A DNA stretch of 32,000 nucleotides from Parasynechococcus marenigrum WH 8102 (GTDB lineage Bacteria > Cyanobacteriota > Cyanobacteriia > PCC-6307 > Cyanobiaceae), in assembly GCF_000195975.1 (NCBI RefSeq), contig NC_005070.1, forward strand, positions 2,130,001 to 2,162,000. The letters are read 5' to 3'. Made by a program: the position numbers and the translations under genes. Below are positions 3,291-16,259 of the stretch, piece by piece; position 1 is the stretch's first letter; the number at the start of each line of letters is the position of its first letter. The notes beneath the pieces were generated by a model that was not told the origin of the DNA, did not search any database, and saw nothing but the letters and a program-made list of their open reading frames with translations.

Positions 3291-3362
3291 TCCTCGGTAG
3301 CTCAGCGGTAGAGCGGTCGACTGTTAATCGATTGGTCGCAGGTTCGAATCCCGCCCGGGGAG
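3291..3362 (+). tRNA. tRNA-Asn (anticodon GUU)
   Basis: Cloverleaf folded by hand. Acceptor stem TCCTCGG/CCGGGGA, D-arm GCTCAGCGGTAGAGC, anticodon loop CTGTTAA, T-loop TTCGAAT. There is one A-C mismatch in the T stem and no encoded CCA. Confidence 0.9.
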
Positions 3363-3366
3363 CTTG

Positions 3367-6004: not shown

Positions 6005-8316
6005 GCCACCCGCAGCAGCAGGGCATTGAGCACCACCGTGATCGAACTGATGGCCATCAGCAAGGCCGCCAGGGGCGGGGACAGCAGCACCCCCTGACTC
6101 GGCAGCAGGGCACCGGCGGCAAGGGGCAGGGCGATCAGGTTGTAACCGAATGCCCAGAACAGGTTCTGCCGAACCTTGGCCAGGGTGCGGCGGGCTAGGG
6201 TCAACGCTTCCGGCAGGTTGTCCAGACGATCTCCCATCAACACCATGCCGGCGGTGTCCTGGGCGATCTGTGTGCCGGTGCCGATGGCGATGCCCAGATC
6301 AGCCGCGGCCAAAGCCGGCGCATCGTTGATGCCATCTCCCACCATGGCGACCCGCCCCCGTTGGCGCAGCTCCTCCAGACGCTGCAGTTTCTGCTCCGGC
6401 AGCATCTGCCAGCCCAGATCAGCCGCCTCAAAGCCCAGCTGCTGACCCAAGGCACGCACGGCCGGCTCGCGGTCACCGCTGAAGATCGCCAGGGCAAGGC
6501 CCTGCTGACGCAAGCGTTCCAGCGCCGGCACCACATCGGCACGCAGCTGGTCTTCGATCTGAACCAATCCCAGCAACGCACTGCCATGGGCCACCGCCAC
6601 CACGGAGCCATCGGCCTGAGCAAGCCAGGTCCTGGCTTCATCGCTGAGGGCAACGCCGAATGAACCCAGCCAATCGGGACGTCCCACCCGGATCGGTTGA
6701 GGCCAACCCTCCACCTCGCCCACCAGACCCTGCCCGGACACGGTGGTGACCTGCACTGGTTCCAGCAGGGTCAGGTCCCGTCGCTGCGCCTCCTGCAGCA
6801 GGGCATGGGCCAGGGGGTGACGACTGCTCTGCTCGAGGCTTGCGGCCAGCTGCAGCAGCAGAGCCGCGTCCTTGGCCCACACGCTGGTCACCAGCGGGCG
6901 TCCGAGGGTGAGGGTGCCGGTCTTGTCGAACACAACGTGATCGAGGCCGGCGGCGGTTTCGATCACATCGCCGCCGCGGAACAACCAGCCCCGCTGCGCT
7001 GCCAGACCAGTGGCCACGGTGATCACGGTGGGGGTGGCCAGACCAAGGGCACAGGGACAGGCCACCACCAGCACAGCGATCGACAACTGCAACGCCAACC
7101 CGACCGGGGAGGTGGCACCACTGCCGAGGCCGCCGTGATGCATCGCATGGCCACTGGTCATCAGATGCCCCTGGGGCATGCCAGGTGCTGACGCCTGCAT
7201 CACCTGAGGCCATTGAGAAGCGCCGAACAGCCACCAGAACAGGAAGGTGGCCAGGGCAAGAGCGATCACGCCGTAGCAGAAGCGTCCGGCTACGCGATCC
7301 GCCAGCCCCTGAATCGGGGCCCGACGCGCCTGGGCCTGCTCCACCAGGCGTATGATACGCGCCAGCGCCGTTTCCGCTCCAACCCGCGTGACCTCCAGCA
7401 CGAGCGGTGCATCGAGGTTGAGGCTGCCGGCGGACAGCTCAAGTCCGGGTTCTGCCTGCCAGGGCAGCGGTTCACCGGTGAGGCTGGAGGCATCCACCGC
7501 CGAATACCCCTCCACCACAACACCATCCACGGGCACACGGTCCCCCGCCAGCAGCTGCAGCCGCTCCCCGGGGCGCAAGGCCCCGACCCGAACATCCCGG
7601 ATGGCGCCATCCGGCAGTACCAGACGGGCCGTATCGGGTTGCAGCTGGGCCAACTGATGCAGCGCCTGACCGGTGCGGAAGCGGGCCCGTTCCTCCAGGA
7701 AGCGCCCAAGCAACACGAAACCCAGCAGCATCACCGGCTCGTTGAAAAAACAGGGCCAGCCCACCTGGGGCCAGATCAGTGCCACAAGACTGGCCAGATA
7801 GGCGCTGCCGACCCCCAGACCCACCAGGGTGTCCATGCTTGGCGCAGCCGCCCGGGCAGCCGCGAATCCACCCAGCAGAATCGGCCGACCGGGACCCAGC
7901 AAGGCCACGGTGGCCAGCGCGGCATGGAACGGCAGGCTGCCGATCAGGGGCAACGACAGATGGCCGGCCTCGCTGAGGTGACCAAGCACCGACAGCAGCA
8001 GCAGTGTGAGGGCCACCATAAGTTGGCGCCACTGCTGCCACCAGGTCAATCCGGAAGCTCCAGTCGCAAGCCGAGCGGACGATGGCTCCAGGGAGCGTTC
8101 ACGGGCCGGAAATCCACGACTGGCCAAGGCCCCGAGTACGGCGTCGACATCGCCATCGGCTTCGCTGAGATCTAGCCATGCCGCACGGCTCACCAGGTTC
8201 ACATCAGCGCGCTGCACCCCCGGCTGCTCGAGCAAGGTGCGCTCCACGGCTCGTACACAGCCTCCGCATTTCATCCCCTCCACATCGAGGACGACGGTCT
8301 GAACCGCAGGACTCAC
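6001..8316 (-). CDS. copper-translocating P1B-type ATPase (CtaA/PacS family)
   Basis: N-terminal HMA motif [11 protein letters not shown] motif [10 protein letters not shown], phosphorylation site DKTGTLT, hinge GDGINDAP. Confidence 0.93.
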
Positions 8317-8390
8317 TGGCGCTTGTTCGTTACGGCAAGGCTAGGTCGGGTGCTGTTCCCGTCAGGATGGGGGCCTTCCGCCGGAGCGCC

Positions 8391-8912
8391 GTGCCCCGCA
8401 GTAATCGCAACGACAACTTCATCGACAAAAGCTTCACGGTGATGGCGGACCTGATCGTCAAGCTGTTGCCGATCAACGCCCGATCCAAGGAGGCATATGT
8501 CTATTACCGCGATGGCCTCTCCGCTCAGAATGATGGCGACTACGCCGAAGCGCTGGAGAACTACGACGAGGCGCTGAAACTCGAGGACAACCCCACCGAC
8601 CGTGGGGAGACCCTCAAGAACATGGCGATCATCTACATGTCCAACGGCGAGGAGGAGCGGGCGATTGAGACGTACCGCAGAGCCCTGGACGAAAACTCCA
8701 ACCAGCCGTCATGCCTCAAGAACATGGGGCTGATCTTTGAGAAATGGGGGCGGATCGCCGAAGAAGACGGCCGCCAGGATGACGCCGATCGCTGGTTTGA
8801 CCAGGCCGCCGAGGCCTGGACCCAGGCGGTGCGCCTCAACCCCGGTGGCTATCTGGACATCGAGAACTGGTTGAAATCCACCGGGCGCAGCAACGTCGAC
8901 GTCTACTTCTGA
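8391..8912 (+). CDS. ycf3: photosystem I assembly protein Ycf3 (TPR)
   Basis: The GTG start gives the canonical 173-aa protein, (V/M)[14 protein letters not shown]...NVDVYF. ATG 8367 is an alternative start. TPR-like repeats are present. Confidence 0.9.
8899..8911 (+). repeat. left direct repeat (putative attL core) ACGTCTACTTCTG
   Basis: Identical 13-mer at 14861-14873. Overlaps the last codons and the first two bases of the stop codon of ycf3. Confidence 0.85.
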
Positions 8913-8969
8913 CAAATGCACCTCCTAAGAATCCAGTCATAGAGCGGGATTTGACGAGGTGCGCTAAAG

Positions 8970-10388
8970 TTGTTCCGAGTCTGTTCCAACAGGGTCGTGC
9001 CAAAAGTCCTCGAAAAGCGGAAAGTCGCCGGAATCAAAGGTGACATCGTTTTGCTTCAACGCGGGCACAATTCGATTGGTTACTACTACCGGGAATACAG
9101 GTCGCTCACCCGTGACTACAAGTTTCAGAAAATCGAAGGCGCCAAGGACATGTATGAGGCGTGCGAGCAAGCCGTTGATATTGCATTCAAGTTTAAAAGT
9201 GAATTCTCAAAAGAGAAGAAGGTTATAAGCGAGCAAGTTGGCGTATACGCACCAAAAAGACAAAGCAGAAAAAGATATAAGCCAATTAAAGCAGCAATAG
9301 ATGAATATCTTGGCGAGGAAGAGAAGAGGGCACGATCTGGTCTCATACAACCTGGCACTTTCAAGACTAAGAATGAATCCTTCAGGCTGTATATCGAACC
9401 TTATATAGCCTCAAAAGGCATTAAGTATACGCAACAGATAGATCACAGCACCTTTGAAGAATATTTTATTTATCGAGCACGAACAACAGCTCTGATGCGG
9501 CAGAGAGAACTTGCTTTCATAAAGCAATGGATCAATAATTATCTACTTCCTAACAAGCTGCTGAATGAAATGCCATCAAAAGCATGGTATCCGCGACAGA
9601 TCGTCAGACAAACGGATCGAATGGCTAACCCAGCTATAAATCCAGCTGATTGGAAAGTAATTATTGATTACATTCGTGATGATTGGCGACATTATCATGA
9701 GCAGGGAGGAATGAAAGGACCTGCAACAAGAATATGGCGAGATGCCTTTTGGCATTTCTGCCTATTCATGAAAAATACCGGGATGAGTCCTGAGGAGATC
9801 TTGAAACTCAAATGGAAAAACGTCGAGATACGAGACATAGGCAGGATTGACAGCAAAGGCGAACGACAAGAATGGCTAGTTGCGTACATCAACACAATCC
9901 GAGCGAAGACACAACAGATGCGAGAAATACCAACTAACCAAGGCAAAGAACTAAAGAGATATATGCAGATGCTGAAGGACTACTGCGCTAAGTACAAGAT
10001 TCCAAATTCAATAGGACCTAACACGCTGGTCTTTGGCAATCCAAATCTAAACTTCGAACCATATGGCCACTGGCGATACGGAAGGTGCTGGCGTGAAATC
10101 AGAGAAGAACTAGCCGACAAGCTCAAAGGCCACAAGTTCAGCAATCACCCATACACCCTGTACTCAATGCGAGCAACATTTATAGAAGATCATCTGCGTA
10201 GAGGCACAGACATCTTTCTACTGGCACGGATGGCTGGCCACGACGTCAAAGAATTAATGAAGAGCTACGAAAGACTTGACATAAGAGAAAGAACCAAAGA
10301 AATAACGACAATTGAATTCGGCAAGCAGAAAAGCAAGGAGGAAGACTTCCTGATCGACCTGATGCAACCAGAAGACGATCAAATCTGA
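8970..10388 (+). CDS. tyrosine recombinase / phage-type integrase (atypical active site)
   Basis: C-terminal catalytic domain: TGMSPEEILKLKWKNV (box I region), IRAKTQQMREIP, YSMRATF (HxxR position), AGHD, and KSYERL (nucleophile Tyr). The start is uncertain: TTG 8970, GTG 8997 or ATG 9150. Confidence 0.85.
   Translation: MFRVCSNRVVPKVLEKRKVAGIKGDIVLLQRGHNSIGYYYREYRSLTRDYKFQKIEGAKDMYEACEQAVDIAFKFKSEFSKEKKVISEQVGVYAPKRQSRKRYKPIKAAIDEYLGEEEKRARSGLIQPGTFKTKNESFRLYIEPYIASKGIKYTQQIDHSTFEEYFIYRARTTALMRQRELAFIKQWINNYLLPNKLLNEMPSKAWYPRQIVRQTDRMANPAINPADWKVIIDYIRDDWRHYHEQGGMKGPATRIWRDAFWHFCLFMKNTGMSPEEILKLKWKNVEIRDIGRIDSKGERQEWLVAYINTIRAKTQQMREIPTNQGKELKRYMQMLKDYCAKYKIPNSIGPNTLVFGNPNLNFEPYGHWRYGRCWREIREELADKLKGHKFSNHPYTLYSMRATFIEDHLRRGTDIFLLARMAGHDVKELMKSYERLDIRERTKEITTIEFGKQKSKEEDFLIDLMQPEDDQI
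8971..8990 (+). repeat. two TGTTCC repeats 11 bp apart (putative arm-type or operator sites)
   Basis: TGTTCCgagtcTGTTCCAAC. Same motif and orientation as the clusters at 11490-11518 and 14776-14823. Confidence 0.6.
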
Positions 10389-10523: not shown

Positions 10524-11411
10524 ATGACTACTAGCACTACAACAAAAGATCGTCACATTACTGACGAAGAATTTGAAGATATTCTTGAATCAGATACATC
10601 TCAGAAGCTGTCCATGTCGATTGAGAGGCAGCCATCGGCTTTATCTCAATCAGATATCGAGCCTGGCCTGCAGGAAACATTCAATGAGAACTGGGAAGCC
10701 AGTATTATCAGCGGACTAACACCGGATCAAATAAGATTACTCAAAGAAAGAACATATTATGCCAATAAATATTACTGGGCTGCTGGCAAATCAATCAGAG
10801 AGACAGCCAGATACTTAGCTGAGATTAGAGAAAATTGCCAAACAGGAACATGGATGGCATTATGCGAAAGCAACAAGCTTAATATCAGCTCCTCGAAAGC
10901 CCGCGAGCTCGCTAATGTATGGGATAAATGGTTAAAGCATGACTACACTATTCCAGAGCTTGCACTCGTTGATGTCTCCACTCGTACACTCAACTTCGTG
11001 GCAAACATCAAAGACGAGGAAACAAAATTAAAAGCAGTAGGATTACTTCGTGACGGCAACAAGATTTCCGAAGATAAATTAAAAGCTATTTTGAAGGAGA
11101 AGAAAACAGCTACAGATGAAGAAAAAGCCAAGGCAAAGCTGAAAAAAGAATTGGATGAGATTGAAAAAGATGCTTCACTGACTGACTACTCAAAACTTGT
11201 CAAGAAGAGTATCAAGCAAAGTGAATTTAAACTCTCTCAAATGCCGGCAAGGATCAAGAAACTCCAGCAAGAAAACAAGGAATTAGAGGAAAAGCTCGAT
11301 GCCTTGAAAGAGGCAGCCAAAGGCCCTGAAGAAGCAAAGGCCTACATTGAAAAGATACGAGCAACTGCACAAGCCAAGAGAGAAGAAACCTCCTTTGCAC
11401 GCAAAGGCTGA
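10524..11411 (+). CDS. hypothetical protein: acidic N-terminus, central region reminiscent of DUF3102, Lys/Glu-rich coiled-coil C-terminus
   Basis: 295-aa ORF with an ATG start, followed by two hairpins. The segment AAGKSIRETARYLAEIRENCQTGTWMALCESNKLNISSSKARELANVW resembles the DUF3102 pattern from memory only. Confidence 0.7.
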   Translation: MTTSTTTKDRHITDEEFEDILESDTSQKLSMSIERQPSALSQSDIEPGLQETFNENWEASIISGLTPDQIRLLKERTYYANKYYWAAGKSIRETARYLAEIRENCQTGTWMALCESNKLNISSSKARELANVWDKWLKHDYTIPELALVDVSTRTLNFVANIKDEETKLKAVGLLRDGNKISEDKLKAILKEKKTATDEEKAKAKLKKELDEIEKDASLTDYSKLVKKSIKQSEFKLSQMPARIKKLQQENKELEEKLDALKEAAKGPEEAKAYIEKIRATAQAKREETSFARKG

Positions 11412-11448
11412 AGACAAGGGTTCTAAAACCCTGCTTGGAAAGAATTCA

Positions 11449-11474
11449 AGCCTCTACATAAGCAGGGGCTTTTT
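11449..11474 (+). terminator. intrinsic terminator after the 295-aa ORF
   Basis: Stem AGCCTCT / AGGGGCT (one G-U pair), 8-nt loop, then TTTTT. Confidence 0.6.
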
Positions 11475-11489
11475 CATGTTGAGCAGGCA

Positions 11490-11518
11490 TGTTCCATGTC
11501 TTATGCATATATGTTCCA
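11490..11518 (+). repeat. two ATGTTCCA repeats 22 bp apart
   Basis: cATGTTCCATG (11489-11498) and atATGTTCCAaa (11511-11518), in the same orientation as the end clusters. Confidence 0.6.
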
Positions 11519-11915
11519 AAATTCTCTGGAAAGCCAGTGGGGATGGGGGTTGCAAAAGTCTTGGTATAACGTCGACGCCAGACGAGACTCCTAAAATTGC
11601 TAGAGCGGTGGTAGCTAATCAAATTAGTAGCCAAATATAGAGTCGCCTTGTATAAACGAGTAGAAAATATCAGAAGCAAGAATTAACTACAATCTCAACC
11701 TGCCAGCTCAACTAAATTCATCAATTTAAGCAAAAGGGTAATCACATCTGCTATCACAATATATACACAATTCAAAGGATTTTAAAAGCATTGCTTGATT
11801 TAACCCTCTATTAGCTTGAGTCACGCACAGGGCAAAAATTAGAAACACCTAGAAGGAAATATATAATCAAAACTTTTACGTGAACTGTGTAGATCTAGGT
11901 ATGAAAAACTTATGA

Positions 11916-11937
11916 CGTTACGCTCGTTACGCTCGTA
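11916..11937 (+). repeat. 9-bp tandem repeat CGTTACGCT x2.4 (iteron-like)
   Basis: CGTTACGCT CGTTACGCT CGTA, read directly, inside the AT-rich non-coding stretch. Confidence 0.8.
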
Positions 11938-12047
11938 GCACCGTAATCTATATAAGTGCTGTATTAATACCAGCTACGTTTACCATGCCGCCTTTCCCTC
12001 TTATGTCTTTCAACTAGTGTATTAAAAAAAGAATATATAAGGGCTTT

Positions 12048-12100
12048 AGCGTAACGAGTTTTATAACTTTGCAGTCATACCAATGCTTTTGCTCGTTACG
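12048..12100. repeat. inverted pair of the same CTCGTTACG motif, separated by 33 nt
   Basis: AGCGTAACGAG (12048-12058) is the reverse complement of 11923-11933. GCTCGTTACG (12091-12100) is a direct copy of 11922-11931. Confidence 0.8.
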
Positions 12101-12267
12101 GTCTATTTTGTGATTAAGCCAATTTATAAGATTAAACTTTTCCAATATCTCATCAGATATAAAAAAGTTAAAACTAAATTTTGAGATAAAGAAACCCATA
12201 AGATCATGAAAGCATTCAAAGGGTAAGAAGCAAAGTCTGTTAAAATATATGCAAAGCAGCTCAAGAA

Positions 12268-12465
12268 ATGAATATCGAATCAATCGAGACAGCATTATCT
12301 AGAGCAAAAAGGTTTCATCTTGGTAATAATGCGAGAGCTAGATACAACGCACCTGGTGATGACACCAATATTACAATCAATACCAAAGAAAAAGTAGTTG
12401 TTGAGAAGCTTTATTTGGTTATGAATATGGATGATTACTGGGGAACGAAAGATAAAGAAAATTAA
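12268..12465 (+). CDS. hypothetical small protein (65 aa)
   Basis: ATG-started ORF in the island with plausible hydrophilic composition. No recognisable motif. Confidence 0.4.
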   Translation: MNIESIETALSRAKRFHLGNNARARYNAPGDDTNITINTKEKVVVEKLYLVMNMDDYWGTKDKEN

Positions 12466-12554
12466 ATGTACGGTAACTACGAAAAAGAGATGCAACATTA
12501 CCCAACCCTGCGTTCCAACTGATAGTTAGCTTCGAAGTAATTTAATTGAATCTC

Positions 12555-12809
12555 ATGCCACGTTTTCGCAAAGGTCAATTGACTTCAAAGACTGATTTCG
12601 AATATGCAATCTATTGGGAACATTTGAGAGCTGAATATTTCAGAGTTAAAGGAAATCAATCCCAATATGACGAGTGCTTAAGGAGAATCACAGAACTAGA
12701 ATGGCGGAATGCAACACGATTTAGTGCAGACGAAATTGATATCTCTTCAAACAATGATTTACAAGATATTGGCATTGTGCCATCCGATGAAATCTCTATA
12801 AAAGACTAA
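12555..12809 (+). CDS. hypothetical small protein (84 aa; 87 aa if TTG 12546)
   Basis: ORF in the island. A GTTCCAAC motif lies 43 bp upstream of the ATG. No recognisable motif. Confidence 0.45.
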   Translation: MPRFRKGQLTSKTDFEYAIYWEHLRAEYFRVKGNQSQYDECLRRITELEWRNATRFSADEIDISSNNDLQDIGIVPSDEISIKD

Positions 12810-12886
12810 AACTGATAAAAAATTTGCGAGACATCTAATATCATCTGAGATGAGTAATCCGGCTGAACAAAAAAAATAAACATCAA

Positions 12887-13156
12887 CTATGGACAATTGA
12901 TTCTTTCCATCCCAGCTTTGATTGTCTGCTCTTGTTCTCTGAGCTGCTCTATTTCAGCAAGAGCAGGAATAGCAGGCACAAAGGCATTAACTTGAACTGT
13001 GAGAAATGTAACTTCTTCATTCTTTATTTCACGCAATGCGTTAGCACCTGATAGACAAGCAAGAGTTACTGACTTCAGGTCAGCATCCTCTTTTTTCTCC
13101 ACCTTCTTGATTGATGAGATAGCTGAGTGTATATTCTCCATCAGGTTTCCAGTCAT
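12887..13156 (-). CDS. hypothetical small protein (89 aa from ATG), the only minus-strand island ORF
   Basis: ATG-started ORF. The frame stays open 28 codons further upstream and encodes a signal-peptide-like segment (see findings). Confidence 0.45.
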   Translation of the reverse strand: MTGNLMENIHSAISSIKKVEKKEDADLKSVTLACLSGANALREIKNEEVTFLTVQVNAFVPAIPALAEIEQLREQEQTIKAGMERINCP

Positions 13157-13339
13157 TGCGAATACTGTAGTTGGAGTAAGTGCAAGTAATGCACACAGAA
13201 CTATTCCTAGTAATCGGCTAATATCAGTTAGTGGCTTCAGTCAATTCTAATTTCTATAGCCATATGAGCAAGAGCTTTCAGTAAGACAACGCCGGCTAAC
13301 GCCGGCTTTATCGGTTAATGTCCATTCGGAGTTAACCCG

Positions 13340-13723
13340 ATGACATTTCAAACAGTTCCCATTGCATCAGCACAGCTCGACCAACTTGCGGACAATATCC
13401 CTGGGTTCACCAGTGATTAGCAATTACTGAAGGATACGCTACAAACAACGATCTTCGTGTCTGGAGCATCTTCTTCATCTGATGGCCGCGCTTCTTACAT
13501 CCTTGGAAATGAGGGTGAACGTGTGTGGCTTCCTAACACTCTGACATGCTGGATTAACGATCTCAAGATTGTTACTCAAACCTACGAACAATATGATCCT
13601 GTTGAAAAGCTACTTGTTTATGTGACAAGTATAACTCGACATCATGGGTCTACCGAATGGGCTTTGATTCATGGGCAAGCTCGTCATTGCTTACAATCAT
13701 CAAATCGATGTCACCAACAATGA
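13340..13723 (+). pseudogene. 127-codon reading frame interrupted by one in-frame TAG (13418-13420): nonsense-disrupted or readthrough gene
   Basis: ATG 13340 through TGA 13723 is a single frame with one internal amber codon. The track only reports the GTG-started distal part, 13457..13723. Confidence 0.5.
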
Positions 13724-14055
13724 TCAAAAAGCGTATTCAAATTAGCCTTAGGCCTAAAGGTCGCGCTTGTTTTGTTGATGTTTCTGCAATCACAGAAGAT
13801 CAATCTGATTACAAGCGTGTTCAAATCAAGGATATTGATTTAGGCCGCAAGCTCGGATACACCGAGATGCTCGATGTCATTTCGTATTTCCATTTGGCAC
13901 AATCCAGCATGCAAGCCCAGATGGCTCAAGCACCTGTCGAACCCAAGCAGCTACCAGCAAGCTCCGAGAGCTCTTCAGAAGCTCTTGAAGCTATGGCTAA
14001 ACCCAGGCGATCTAGGCGCAAGTCCAAAGCACCTGCAAAGGCTACAACCGCATGA
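13720..14055 (+). CDS. hypothetical protein with Ser-rich linker and basic C-terminal tail (111 aa; 132 aa if ATG 13657)
   Basis: ATG 13720 overlaps the upstream stop as ATGA. The C-terminus is KPRRSRRKSKAPAKATTA. Two strong terminators follow. Confidence 0.55.
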   Translation: MIKKRIQISLRPKGRACFVDVSAITEDQSDYKRVQIKDIDLGRKLGYTEMLDVISYFHLAQSSMQAQMAQAPVEPKQLPASSESSSEALEAMAKPRRSRRKSKAPAKATTA

Positions 14056-14061
14056 ATACAT

Positions 14062-14091
14062 AGCCTCGCATTTCTAGCGGGGCTTTTTTTG
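14062..14091 (+). terminator. intrinsic terminator (first of a tandem pair)
   Basis: Stem AGCCTCGC / GCGGGGCT, loop ATTTCTA, then TTTTTTT. Confidence 0.8.
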
Positions 14092-14100
14092 ATACTTGAT

Positions 14101-14126
14101 AGCCGGTTAACACCGGCTGTTTTTTT
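14101..14126 (+). terminator. intrinsic terminator (second of the tandem pair)
   Basis: Stem AGCCGG / CCGGCT, loop TTAACA, then GTTTTTTT. Confidence 0.75.
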
Positions 14127-14206
14127 AGTGGTCGAAATGTAAAAGATGGATAGTTCCAACCAGGATCTTGCGGCATCAACAACTTCGGCCACCAAACCCA
14201 CTAGCT

Positions 14207-14437
14207 ATGCACACTATGCGCTTCAAAATCCCAGGCCGCGACATCCAAGTTCGCATTGTCGAACGTGTCATGACGAATGACCCACAATATGACATATTTG
14301 ATGTTGGTATTGAGTACCAAGATGGATCAATTGATTCACTCGTCGTACCAGGAAGCGGCTCTTACAAATCGGCAAAGGCTTTTGTCAAACGTATTGACGA
14401 CAAAGCGCAGACAAAAGAATCAATTGCTACAGTCTGA
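14207..14437 (+). CDS. hypothetical small protein (76 aa from ATG 14207; the track ORF starts at TTG 14168)
   Basis: ORF with a GTTCCAAC motif upstream (14153-14160) and a strong terminator downstream. Confidence 0.5.
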   Translation: MHTMRFKIPGRDIQVRIVERVMTNDPQYDIFDVGIEYQDGSIDSLVVPGSGSYKSAKAFVKRIDDKAQTKESIATV

Positions 14438-14445
14438 ATAAAATT

Positions 14446-14471
14446 GCCTGCAATAACTGCAGGCTTTTTTT
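14446..14471 (+). terminator. intrinsic terminator
   Basis: Stem GCCTGCA / TGCAGGC, loop ATAAC, then TTTTTTT. Confidence 0.85.
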
Positions 14472-14542
14472 ATTTTCTATCTATCTTTAGGCTTGCATTA
14501 CTAGCTGCATTTGCGAATATTTAAATAATTGGCATTGGAACG

Positions 14543-14731
14543 ATGGGTATTTTTGCTGCCACATTGTCAAGCGTAAGCATTTTAATTTCTATTCCACTTA
14601 TCCAAACGTATTTAAAGACTAATGAATCAAAACAGGCAATATTAATGGACTGTATTAGCAGGCAAATCATATCTCCGCTATGCACTGATTTGTATCTTCG
14701 AAATCCAGGCAAAACTTACGCTGGACATTAA
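14543..14731 (+). CDS. possible small membrane protein (62 aa)
   Basis: Hydrophobic N-terminus GIFAATLSSVSILISIPLI. It competes with antisense ORF 14521..14712. Weak call. Confidence 0.3.
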   Translation: MGIFAATLSSVSILISIPLIQTYLKTNESKQAILMDCISRQIISPLCTDLYLRNPGKTYAGH

Positions 14732-14775
14732 CGAACCTTTAAATTTTAAGAAGTGTTACAAACCTTAATAGGATC

Positions 14776-14823
14776 TGTTCCATGTCACGTTCCATGCTCT
14801 GTTCCATGTTTGTTCCGTTCCAC
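14776..14823 (+). repeat. array of five GTTCC(ATG) repeats with 12/12/11/5-bp spacing (putative arm-type sites)
   Basis: TGTTCCATG tcac GTTCCATG ctct GTTCCATG tt TGTTCC GTTCCAC. The array ends 38 bp before the right direct repeat. Confidence 0.75.
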
Positions 14824-14860
14824 TGACAGTGGCAAACCCTTTAGTATGACACGAACATGC

Positions 14861-14873
14861 ACGTCTACTTCTG
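14861..14873 (+). repeat. right direct repeat (putative attR core) ACGTCTACTTCTG
   Basis: Identical to 8899-8911. Contains the radA stop codon (CTA on plus, 14865-14867). Confidence 0.85.
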
Positions 14874-16259
14874 GTCCGTCACGTCCTCACCGAGGGCCAG
14901 CACCAGGGCCTCGGTGACCCCATCGGCCTCCAGGAGGGCAAGATCAAGACCACTGGCCAAGGCACCTAGTCCACTGCCACGGGGCACCACCGCCCGCCGG
15001 AATCCGAGCCGCGCTGCCTCCTGCAGGCGTAACTCCAGCTGACCGACCGGTCTGAGCTGCCCCCCCAGACCGAGCTCGCCGACCAGCACCGTCCCCGGCG
15101 GGAGGGTGAGATCGCGAAAACTGGCCACCACCGCAGCCGCCACCCCAAGATCCGCCGCCGGCTCCTCCACCTCCAGCCCACCGGCCACGGCCAGGTAACA
15201 GTCAAAGCGGGAGAGGGGTAACCCCATGTGCTTTTCCAGCACCGCCAGGATCTGGTGAAGCCGGTTGGTGCCGATGCCCGTGGCCGTGCGTCGAGGGCTG
15301 GCATAGCTGGTGACATTGACCAGGGCCTGCAGGTCCACCACCAGCGAACGTGATCCCTCACAGGCCACGATCGTGGCGACACCCGAGGCACGGGTTTCAC
15401 TCAGGAACAACTCGCTGGGATTGCTCACCTCCTCCAGGCCCTGGGCCTGCATCTCGAACAGTCCCAGTTCATGGGTGGCTCCGAAACGGTTTTTCACGGC
15501 CCGCAACAGCCGGTGACTGGCAAAGCGGTCCCCTTCGAAGGTGAGCACCGCGTCCACCAGGTGTTCCAGCACCTTGGGTCCAGCCAACATTCCCTCCTTG
15601 GTCACGTGGCCCACCAACAACAGGGCTGTGGTCTGGCGTTTGGCCAGCCGTTGCAAGGCGGCGGCACATTCCCGCACCTGACCAACCGAGCCGGGAGCAC
15701 TGGGGAGGTTGGCGTCGTGAAGTGCCTGGATGCTGTCGATGATCGCCACGGCAGGACGCAGGGCCTCCAGCTCCTCCAGCACCAGCTCGAGGTCGGTTTC
15801 CGCCAGCAGCTGCAGATCAGAGGGGCCACCCGCCAGGCGCTGCCAACGCAGCTTCACCTGCTGGGCCGACTCCTCAGCACTCACATACAGCACTGAGGTT
15901 TGAGCAGCCATCGTCGACGCGCTCTGCAGCAGCAGGGTGCTCTTACCGATGCCCGGATCTCCCCCCACCAGCACCAGGGAGCCCGGCACCAGCCCGCCAC
16001 CCAGCACCCGATCAAATTCACCGGAACCCGTTGGCAATCGCCGGATCGGCTGATCCTCCAGCGAGGCCATGGCTGTGGAGCGTTTCGGCGTCGATGGTCG
16101 GTCTGCATCGGGCGCACGGCGACGACGGCCGCCGTCATTGGCGGGCTGGGACTGCTCGACGAGGGAATTCCAGCTGCCGCACTCCGGGCAGCGCCCAAAG
16201 AACTGTCGTGACTGGGCTCCACAGACCTGGCAATGGAACACAACGGCGGATTTAGGCAC
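14865..16259 (-). CDS. radA: DNA repair protein RadA/Sms
   Basis: N-terminal zinc finger CQVCGAQSRQFFGRCPECGSW, Walker A GDPGIGKST, RadA motif KNRFG, Lon-protease-like C-terminal domain. Confidence 0.95.
   Translation of the reverse strand: MPKSAVVFHCQVCGAQSRQFFGRCPECGSWNSLVEQSQPANDGGRRRRAPDADRPSTPKRSTAMASLEDQPIRRLPTGSGEFDRVLGGGLVPGSLVLVGGDPGIGKSTLLLQSASTMAAQTSVLYVSAEESAQQVKLRWQRLAGGPSDLQLLAETDLELVLEELEALRPAVAIIDSIQALHDANLPSAPGSVGQVRECAAALQRLAKRQTTALLLVGHVTKEGMLAGPKVLEHLVDAVLTFEGDRFASHRLLRAVKNRFGATHELGLFEMQAQGLEEVSNPSELFLSETRASGVATIVACEGSRSLVVDLQALVNVTSYASPRRTATGIGTNRLHQILAVLEKHMGLPLSRFDCYLAVAGGLEVEEPAADLGVAAAVVASFRDLTLPPGTVLVGELGLGGQLRPVGQLELRLQEAARLGFRRAVVPRGSGLGALASGLDLALLEADGVTEALVLALGEDVTDQK

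What the first reader, a model, noticed from the sequence alone, without database searches (positions are those of the whole stretch)
8897..8913. The att core contains both host stop codons, and the ycf3 TGA is completed by the first island base
The left repeat ends ...TTC TG, and the A of the ycf3 stop (8912) is the first non-repeat base. The right repeat contains the radA stop (CTA, 14865-14867) and is followed by G (14874). A precise excision junction (left flank + core + right flank) would read TTC TGG. Ycf3 would then run on for roughly 57 codons antisense to radA, which is the frame of track ORF 14857..15042. A single A at 14874 would restore a 14-bp repeat. It would give TGA for ycf3 and a synonymous GAT(Asp) for radA. 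So the ancestral site may have been a 10-nt tail-to-tail overlap of ycf3 and radA, with the right copy mutating after integration. In either case the element is coupled to correct termination of a PSI assembly gene.
Basis: inference. Interest (0 to 1): 0.6.

Follow-up and report, generated by a model that had tools for sequence, protein, structure and literature searches.

The report
Island inserted at overlapping stop codons
A 6-kb mobile island in a marine Synechococcus inserted exactly where the stop codons of two converging genes (ycf3 and radA) overlap, and one later silent base change means that cutting the island out cleanly would now leave ycf3 without a stop; this is a neat but ordinary kind of site-specific integration.

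Summary
An exact 13-bp direct repeat, ACGTCTACTTCTG, lies at 8899-8911 and 14861-14873, where GC falls from about 0.66 to about 0.40. The ycf3 stop is at 8910-8912 and the radA stop at 14865-14867.

The four closest genomes and four metagenome contigs have no island, one of them 97-98% identical to the window. All read ...CTTCTGATCCGT..., so ycf3 TGA and radA TAG overlap tail-to-tail by 10 nt, with A where the window has G (14874). Of 47 other genomes of the genus, 16 show this overlap.

New evidence comes from three relic ends of the same element family elsewhere in this genome. All three keep the A after the core. So the ancestral common core was 14 bp and contained the whole TGA. The A at 8912 is a core base, not a lucky island base, and the G in attR is most likely a later silent change in radA (GAT to GAC).

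Precise excision would now give Ycf3 plus 56 residues; this follows from the sequence and was not tested experimentally. The integrase has a lambda-Int/Cre-like fold. In the genus, no homologue had a tRNA within 1.5 kb and most sit at the ends of protein genes, unlike tycheposons. I class this as a new variant of a known kind, of moderate interest.

The parts
8367..8912 (+). ycf3 (TPR protein for photosystem I assembly); the likely start is ATG 8367, though the open frame begins at 8178
   Evidence: Pfam TPR hits. The start was chosen by comparison with the 181-aa ORF of G052. The gene is conserved in 48 of 51 genus genomes.
8899..8912 (+). attL core: exact 13-bp repeat 8899-8911 plus A 8912, the inferred 14-bp ancestral common core; it holds the ycf3 stop at 8910-8912
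8913..8996 (+). Left arm of the element (P' side), with GTTCC words at 8972 and 8983; no promoter-like or terminator-like site lies between the ycf3 stop and the integrase start
   Evidence: The arm is 85% identical to the left arm at the relic junction near genome position 346 kb.
8997..10388 (+). Tyrosine integrase, 463 aa from GTG 8997 (the ORF is open from 8970)
   Evidence: PHROG_1 integrase E 2e-14. Pfam PF00589 is weak, at 21.6 bits. Homologues begin MPK.... The AlphaFold model matches Cre, full-length lambda Int, Tn1549 Int and XerH.
10524..14731 (.). Cargo: a 295-aa ORF and several small ORFs with no family match
   Evidence: The stretch 12358-14873 is repeated at 88-93% identity near genome position 1.847 Mb.
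14776..14860 (+). Right arm (P side), with five GTTCC words; the last 8 nt before the core carry a decayed copy of the ycf3 end
14861..14873 (+). attR core, an exact 13-bp repeat; it holds the radA stop (CTA, 14865-14867)
14874..14874 (+). Derived G (complement of the third base of radA Asp codon GAC); it is A in every empty site and in three other element ends
14865..16259 (-). radA (DNA repair protein RadA/Sms)
   Evidence: Pfam AAA_25, the zinc-ribbon family PF18073 and ChlI hits. The C-terminus ...VTDQK-stop is shared with the closest relatives.
14872..15042 (+). Frame that ycf3 would run into after a precise excision that keeps the G (56 extra residues, antisense to radA)
   Evidence: part of ORF 14857..15042.

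Best explanation
A 5,962-bp integrative island with a lambda-type tyrosine integrase entered the chromosome by site-specific recombination. Its target was a 14-bp site, ACGTCTACTTCTGA, formed by the 10-nt tail-to-tail overlap of the ycf3 and radA stop codons. Integration duplicated this core, so ycf3 ends in the left copy and radA ends in the right copy, and both proteins are unchanged. In the right copy the last core base no longer serves as part of a ycf3 stop. It later changed from A to G, which is silent in radA (GAT to GAC). Shown here: the repeat, the empty sites, the ancestral overlap, the A in all other copies of the core and the recombinase fold. Inferred: the order of events (integration first, then A to G). 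Also inferred is the consequence, which depends on where the integrase cuts. If the strand-exchange region lies within the 13 identical bases, excision would leave TGG and a Ycf3 longer by 56 residues. If the mismatch falls inside that region, excision would be hindered.
For: Direct repeat at the GC boundaries. Eight island-free sequences carry a single copy of the 14-bp core with A, including contig L064 at 96.6-98.1% identity over 14.7 kb. The 10-nt overlap occurs in 16 of 47 genus genomes, including the most divergent one, so it is old. The 13-mer is exact four times in the genome, each time at an end of this element family. The base after the core is A in attL and in all three relic ends. 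These are the arm-core-arm junction near 346 kb, the arm-core-orphan radA fragment near 345 kb and the partial copy near 1.847 Mb. It is G only in attR. No G variant turned up in the metagenome scan. The integrase has a tyrosine-recombinase fold with an N-terminal beta domain. Relatives of the integrase in two other genomes sit at the 3' ends of protein genes, with short repeats covering the gene end.
Against: No excised circle or free attP of this element was found, so the attP sequence is inferred from relic copies. The cut positions of the integrase are unknown. Asp codons GAC and GAT are used about equally (186 to 180), so no codon bias predicts the change; it is one neutral event at a site with roughly a 5% chance of change at this divergence (my own rough estimate). 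The canonical first catalytic arginine position is a serine in the whole integrase family, so activity is not certain. I could not check reads, so a sequencing error at 14874 is not excluded.
Confidence: 0.78

Rival explanations
1. The G was created at integration, not later. On this reading attP carried G after the 13-bp core, and the position lay at the edge of the strand-exchange region. Both new junctions were then heteroduplex, and replication yielded one daughter with attL = A and attR = G.
For: This is the known strand-exchange geometry of lambda-type integrases (textbook knowledge, not tested here). It predicts exactly the observed pair, attL A and attR G, with no mutation needed.
Against: The related arm-core-arm (attP-like) junction near 346 kb reads A before the left arm, and the other two relic right ends also read A. 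A mismatch beside a cleavage site is known to inhibit the second strand exchange (my own knowledge).
Confidence: 0.1
2. The G at 14874 is a sequencing or assembly error, or a variant peculiar to the sequenced culture. On this reading both cores are really 14 bp.
For: It is a single base in a single assembly, and I had no read data.
Against: The genome is a finished single contig. Nothing else around the site looks odd, and the change is a plausible silent transition.
Confidence: 0.05
3. The change was selected, not neutral. It acts as a one-base lock that makes excision costly and so keeps the island in place.
For: Precise excision with G gives a Ycf3 without its stop, 56 residues longer. The island appears in a second near-identical genome and on several environmental contigs.
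Against: There is no evidence that the island excises, that the cargo is useful (no family hits) or that a longer Ycf3 is harmful. A neutral silent change explains the data as well.
Confidence: 0.07

Closest known systems
Phage lambda Int with attP/attB (heterobivalent tyrosine integrases with arm-type sites)
   Same: Predicted fold matches full-length lambda Int, Cre and Tn1549 Int. There is a short common core duplicated at both junctions. Repeated GTTCC words lie in both arms. The integrase gene sits just inside one end.
   Different: No PDB hit by sequence and only a weak Pfam score. A serine sits where the first catalytic arginine motif is expected, in the whole family. The target is two overlapping stop codons, not an intergenic site. 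No excisionase was recognised.
Prophages and islands that insert in the 3' end of a protein gene and carry a replacement end (e14 and phage 21 in icd of E. coli; cited from memory)
   Same: The core lies in the last codons of the target genes, and both genes keep an intact end. In relatives of this integrase the element carries a synonymous copy of the last 7 codons plus stop of a cobO-like gene (Pfam CobA_CobO_BtuR) (L069). In another it replaces the last 3 residues plus stop of a gene (L072).
   Different: One 14-bp core serves the ends of two converging genes at once. The element supplies at most the last base of one stop codon.
Tycheposons of Prochlorococcus and Synechococcus (Hackl et al., bioRxiv 10.1101/2020.12.28.424599; Grebert et al. 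2022, PMC8995045)
   Same: A small AT-rich island in a marine picocyanobacterium with a divergent tyrosine recombinase at its edge and orphan cargo. Tandem and degraded copies occur elsewhere in the genome.
   Different: Tycheposons attach at tRNA or tmRNA genes. This element and 18 homologue loci in the genus have no tRNA within 1.5 kb. No tycheposon hallmark genes were recognised. I had no tycheposon integrase sequence to compare.

Membership tests
Tyrosine-recombinase integrative element | Encodes a tyrosine recombinase (fold) | tested here: met
   PHROG_1 integrase E 2e-14. A model with mean pLDDT 78.8 matches Cre, lambda Int, Tn1549 Int and XerH at Foldseek probability 1.00.
Tyrosine-recombinase integrative element | Complete catalytic set R-K-H-R-H/W-Y | tested here: inconclusive
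   Family-invariant K313, R401 (in Y-S-M-R), H424 and Y433 fit the later motifs. The expected first-arginine motif reads T-G-M-S-P-E-E, with Ser273 invariant in 15 of 15 sequences. No residue-level structural alignment was made.
Tyrosine-recombinase integrative element | Direct repeats (att core) at both junctions, at the composition boundaries | tested here: met
   13 bp exact at 8899-8911 and 14861-14873.
Tyrosine-recombinase integrative element | Empty site in relatives equals one copy of the core between the same flanks | tested here: met
   Four genomes and four metagenome contigs.
Tyrosine-recombinase integrative element | Excised circular form or attP junction | tested here: not met
   No match to the attP junction of this element in viral or genome collections. 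Only an attP-like junction of a diverged relic was found, near genome position 346 kb.
Tycheposon | Attachment site in a tRNA or tmRNA gene | tested here: not met
   The only tRNA in the window is at 3291-3363. There was none in 18 homologue loci.
Tycheposon | Tycheposon-type recombinase and hallmark genes | not tested
   No reference sequences were available. The cargo has no Pfam or PHROG hits.
Elements targeting 3' ends of protein genes | Core inside the terminal codons of the target gene, with the gene end preserved after insertion | tested here: met
   The ycf3 stop lies in attL and the radA stop in attR. Both C-termini are identical to those of island-free relatives.

The most novel reading that the evidence does not exclude
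Inserting into a site where two genes share overlapping stop codons splits the double constraint. Each copy of the core then serves only one gene and is free to drift in the other gene's stop. Here one silent change has already turned reversible integration into a one-way step, because clean excision would destroy the ycf3 stop. If this is general, elements at overlapping gene ends would become fixed faster than elements in tRNA genes.
Probability: 0.25. Interest if true: 0.55.

Novelty: new variant of a known kind. Interest (0 to 1): 0.4.

Why it matters
This is a clean natural example of how a mobile island can use overlapping stop codons of two essential-type genes as its docking site without harming either gene. 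It also shows how one silent change afterwards can make removal costly. The integrase family in marine Synechococcus docks at the ends of protein genes rather than at tRNA genes. That extends the picture of how genomic islands are seeded in picocyanobacteria. The practical weight is modest, because the mechanism is a known one and the cargo has no recognised function.

Tried and rejected
- **Contig look-up:** I therefore could not read the sister genome or the environmental contigs that carry the same integrase.
- **Junction scans:** scans for the attP junction and for the right arm plus core found no relevant copy. The viral collection gave none for the core plus left arm and one hit for the right arm plus core in a 167-kb contig, which I did not inspect. 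The genome collection gave only unrelated taxa. I read these hits as chance matches.
- **Codon bias:** I expected GAC to be preferred over GAT, which would have explained the A to G change. The host ORFs use them 186 to 180, so I dropped that argument.
- **Dead integrase:** The serine is invariant in all 15 family members aligned, so it is a family trait, not decay in this strain.
- **PDB by sequence:** a profile search gave nothing; only the fold search worked.
- **Empty site at 1.847 Mb:** I tried to define the empty site of the partial copy there. The relatives are only about 72% identical at that locus and no clean empty site could be read.
- **Contig breaks:** two metagenome contigs end 4 nt before the core. 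I considered this a sign of population variation at the site. The shared 4 nt belong to ycf3, not to the island arm, so it proves nothing.

Full report
**Observation**

The window lies at 2,130,001-2,162,000 of a finished 2,434,428-bp genome.
- The exact 13-mer ACGTCTACTTCTG lies at 8899-8911 and 14861-14873. The repeat finder extends it to 20 nt at 85% identity.
- GC is about 0.66 outside these points and about 0.40 between them.
- The ycf3 frame (TPR repeats) stops at TGA 8910-8912, so its A is the first base after the exact repeat.
- radA (14865-16259, minus strand) stops at 14865-14867, inside the right copy. The next base on the right is G (14874).
- Chance is unlikely. One of 500 shuffles of the boundary windows reached 13 nt, and the analytic expectation is 5e-4. 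The 13-mer is exact four times in the genome against about 0.07 expected.

**Empty sites**

ycf3 and radA converge and are adjacent throughout the genus.
- The four closest genomes (G053, G009, G021, G022) have no island. They read ...GTCTACTT(C/T)TGATCCGT....
- Four metagenome contigs found with a pattern that allowed A or G all carry A and are empty sites.
- Contig L064 is 96.6-98.1% identical to the window over 14.7 kb. Its left match ends at 8912 and its right match starts at 14861, with 14 nt of the query shared by both.
- In these sequences RadA ends D-Q-K-stop and its stop lies 10 nt inside the end of ycf3.

Across 47 other genus genomes the junction falls into these classes:

| Junction type | Genomes |
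|---|---|
| 10-nt overlap | 16 |
| 1-nt spacer | 16 |
| 4-nt spacer | 8 |
| 4-nt overlap | 1 |
| 31-nt spacer | 1 |
| Larger insert or unresolved | 5 |

The 10-nt overlap also occurs in the most divergent genome, so it is old.

**Other copies of the core in the same genome**

[quoted passage not shown] A pattern search then found all copies of the core.
- **Near 1,847,168:** the right 2.4 kb of the island is repeated at 88% identity. It ends in right arm, core and A, followed by unrelated DNA.
- **Near 346,500 (minus strand):** a right arm, a core with one mismatch, A and a left arm follow one another. This is the arrangement of attP. Here arm plus core read N-V-D-V-Y-F-stop, a synonymous copy of the ycf3 end.
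- **Near 345,270 (minus strand):** a right arm, core and A are followed by an orphan 240-nt fragment of a radA 3' end at 88% identity.

In the alignment of seven junctions and empty sites, the base after the core is A in six and G only in the window's attR. So the common core of this element family is 14 bp and contains the complete TGA. The G is the derived state.

**The integrase**

The ORF is open from 8970, but homologues start M-P-K, which fits GTG 8997 and gives 463 aa.
- Pfam scores it below threshold. PHROGs calls it an integrase. A PDB sequence search finds nothing.
- A model with mean pLDDT 78.8 matches Cre, full-length lambda Int, Tn1549 Int and XerH. It has an N-terminal beta domain, as lambda-type integrases with arm binding do.
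- The serine at the expected first-arginine position is invariant in all 15 aligned family members. It is a family trait, not a defect of this strain.
- No promoter-like or terminator-like site lies in the 85 nt between the ycf3 stop and the integrase start. Read-through from ycf3 is possible, but that is only an inference.

**The family**

Homologues at 24-44% identity occur in 18 of 50 other genus genomes. None of the 18 loci checked has a tRNA within 1.5 kb. Their neighbours are protein genes:
- the 3' ends of rpsD, ychF, a DUF3611 gene, a ubiE-like gene and a gene of unknown family;
- a ThiF-family gene upstream of an element that inserted in the 3' end of a cobO-like gene (Pfam CobA_CobO_BtuR);
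- the 5' side of leuS;
- a comM-like gene that appears to be split.

In G053 a roughly 45-nt imperfect repeat carries a synonymous copy of the last seven codons and the stop of the cobO-like gene. In G041 a 13-nt core lies 14 nt before a stop, and the element replaces the last three residues and the stop. Tycheposons, the known island builders of picocyanobacteria, are described as attaching at tRNA or tmRNA genes. This family differs in that respect.

**Mechanism**

What is shown:
- a site-specific insertion that duplicated a core spanning both stops and left both proteins unchanged;
- that A is ancestral in attB and is shared by other ends of the element family.

What is inferred:
- attP of this element carried A, and attR changed from A to G after integration. 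The change is silent in radA (GAT to GAC). It became neutral once ycf3 used the left copy.
- Codon usage gives no direction, since GAC and GAT occur 186 and 180 times.

The main rival is that attP had G and that heteroduplex segregation at integration produced the pair attL A and attR G. It fits the geometry of strand exchange. It is weakened by the A in the attP-like relic and in the two other right ends.

The consequence depends on where the integrase cuts:
- If the exchange region lies inside the 13 identical bases, excision leaves TGG and Ycf3 gains 56 residues read antisense to radA.
- If the mismatch lies inside the exchange region, excision is hindered or gives mixed products.

Neither outcome was tested.

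**Known or new**

That this genome has regions of atypical GC next to phage-type integrases is long known (Palenik et al. 2003, as cited in PMC3744912). Integration into the 3' ends of protein genes is also a known strategy. I did not find, in the library searches (which held only a handful of relevant papers), either of two things:
- an att core made of two overlapping convergent stop codons;
- a description of this protein-gene-targeting integrase family in Synechococcus.

I rate the finding as a new variant of a known kind, with moderate interest.

**Limits**

The sister genome, whose integrase is 460 of 463 identical, could therefore not be read.
- I had no read data.

Noticed in passing
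L110:7270-10181 (genome 1,844,269-1,847,181): A partial second copy of the island's right 2.4 kb (88% identity, plus a 128-nt piece at 93%), without an integrase. It ends in right arm, core and A, 5 nt from the stop of a small minus-strand gene.
   Followed up: partly
L117 (genome 345,020-346,570, minus strand): Relic array: right arm, core (one mismatch) and left arm (attP-like); then about 1.05 kb with a 276-aa ORF of no known family; then right arm, core and a 240-nt orphan radA 3' fragment at 88% identity. It looks like a mini-element plus host DNA carried along from another strain.
   Followed up: partly
L033:3192-3839 and L032:3986-4425 (G043, G044): Integrase homologues at 44% identity lie head-to-head with the C-terminal half of a comM-like Mg-chelatase gene (the Pfam match starts at profile position 110 of 207). 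This suggests insertion in the middle of that gene.
   Followed up: no
L069 (G053) and L072 (G041): Two relatives of the element with clear repeats at the GC boundaries. One carries a synonymous copy of the last 7 codons plus stop of a cobO-like gene. The other replaces the last 3 residues plus stop of a 420-aa gene of unknown family.
   Followed up: partly
L098:1180-2158 (G052); also L099, L100, L012: In four genus genomes about 1 kb of AT-rich DNA lies between ycf3 and radA. In G052, the one read in full, it holds two small minus-strand ORFs and no integrase. The junction is a recurrent insertion point.
   Followed up: partly
window 9780-9800 (integrase residues 270-276): The T-G-M-S-P-E-E motif, with serine where tyrosine recombinases usually have the first catalytic arginine, is invariant in all 15 family members aligned. 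An invariant R257 lies one helix earlier.
   Followed up: partly
L102:850-1050 (IMG/VR contig, 17.7 kb): A viral-collection contig carries an integrase 49% identical to this one. It is preceded by ATACCAAC repeats instead of GTTCC words and has no ycf3 upstream. It may be a free or phage-borne member of the family.
   Followed up: no
window 8913-8996: Only 85 nt separate the ycf3 stop from the integrase start, with no promoter-like or terminator-like site. In most homologue loci the integrase is likewise co-oriented just downstream of a host gene.
   Followed up: no
window 14446-14464: A two-way terminator-like hairpin about 400 nt inside the island's right end. It may now end radA transcripts, which before insertion had to run antisense into ycf3.
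   Followed up: no
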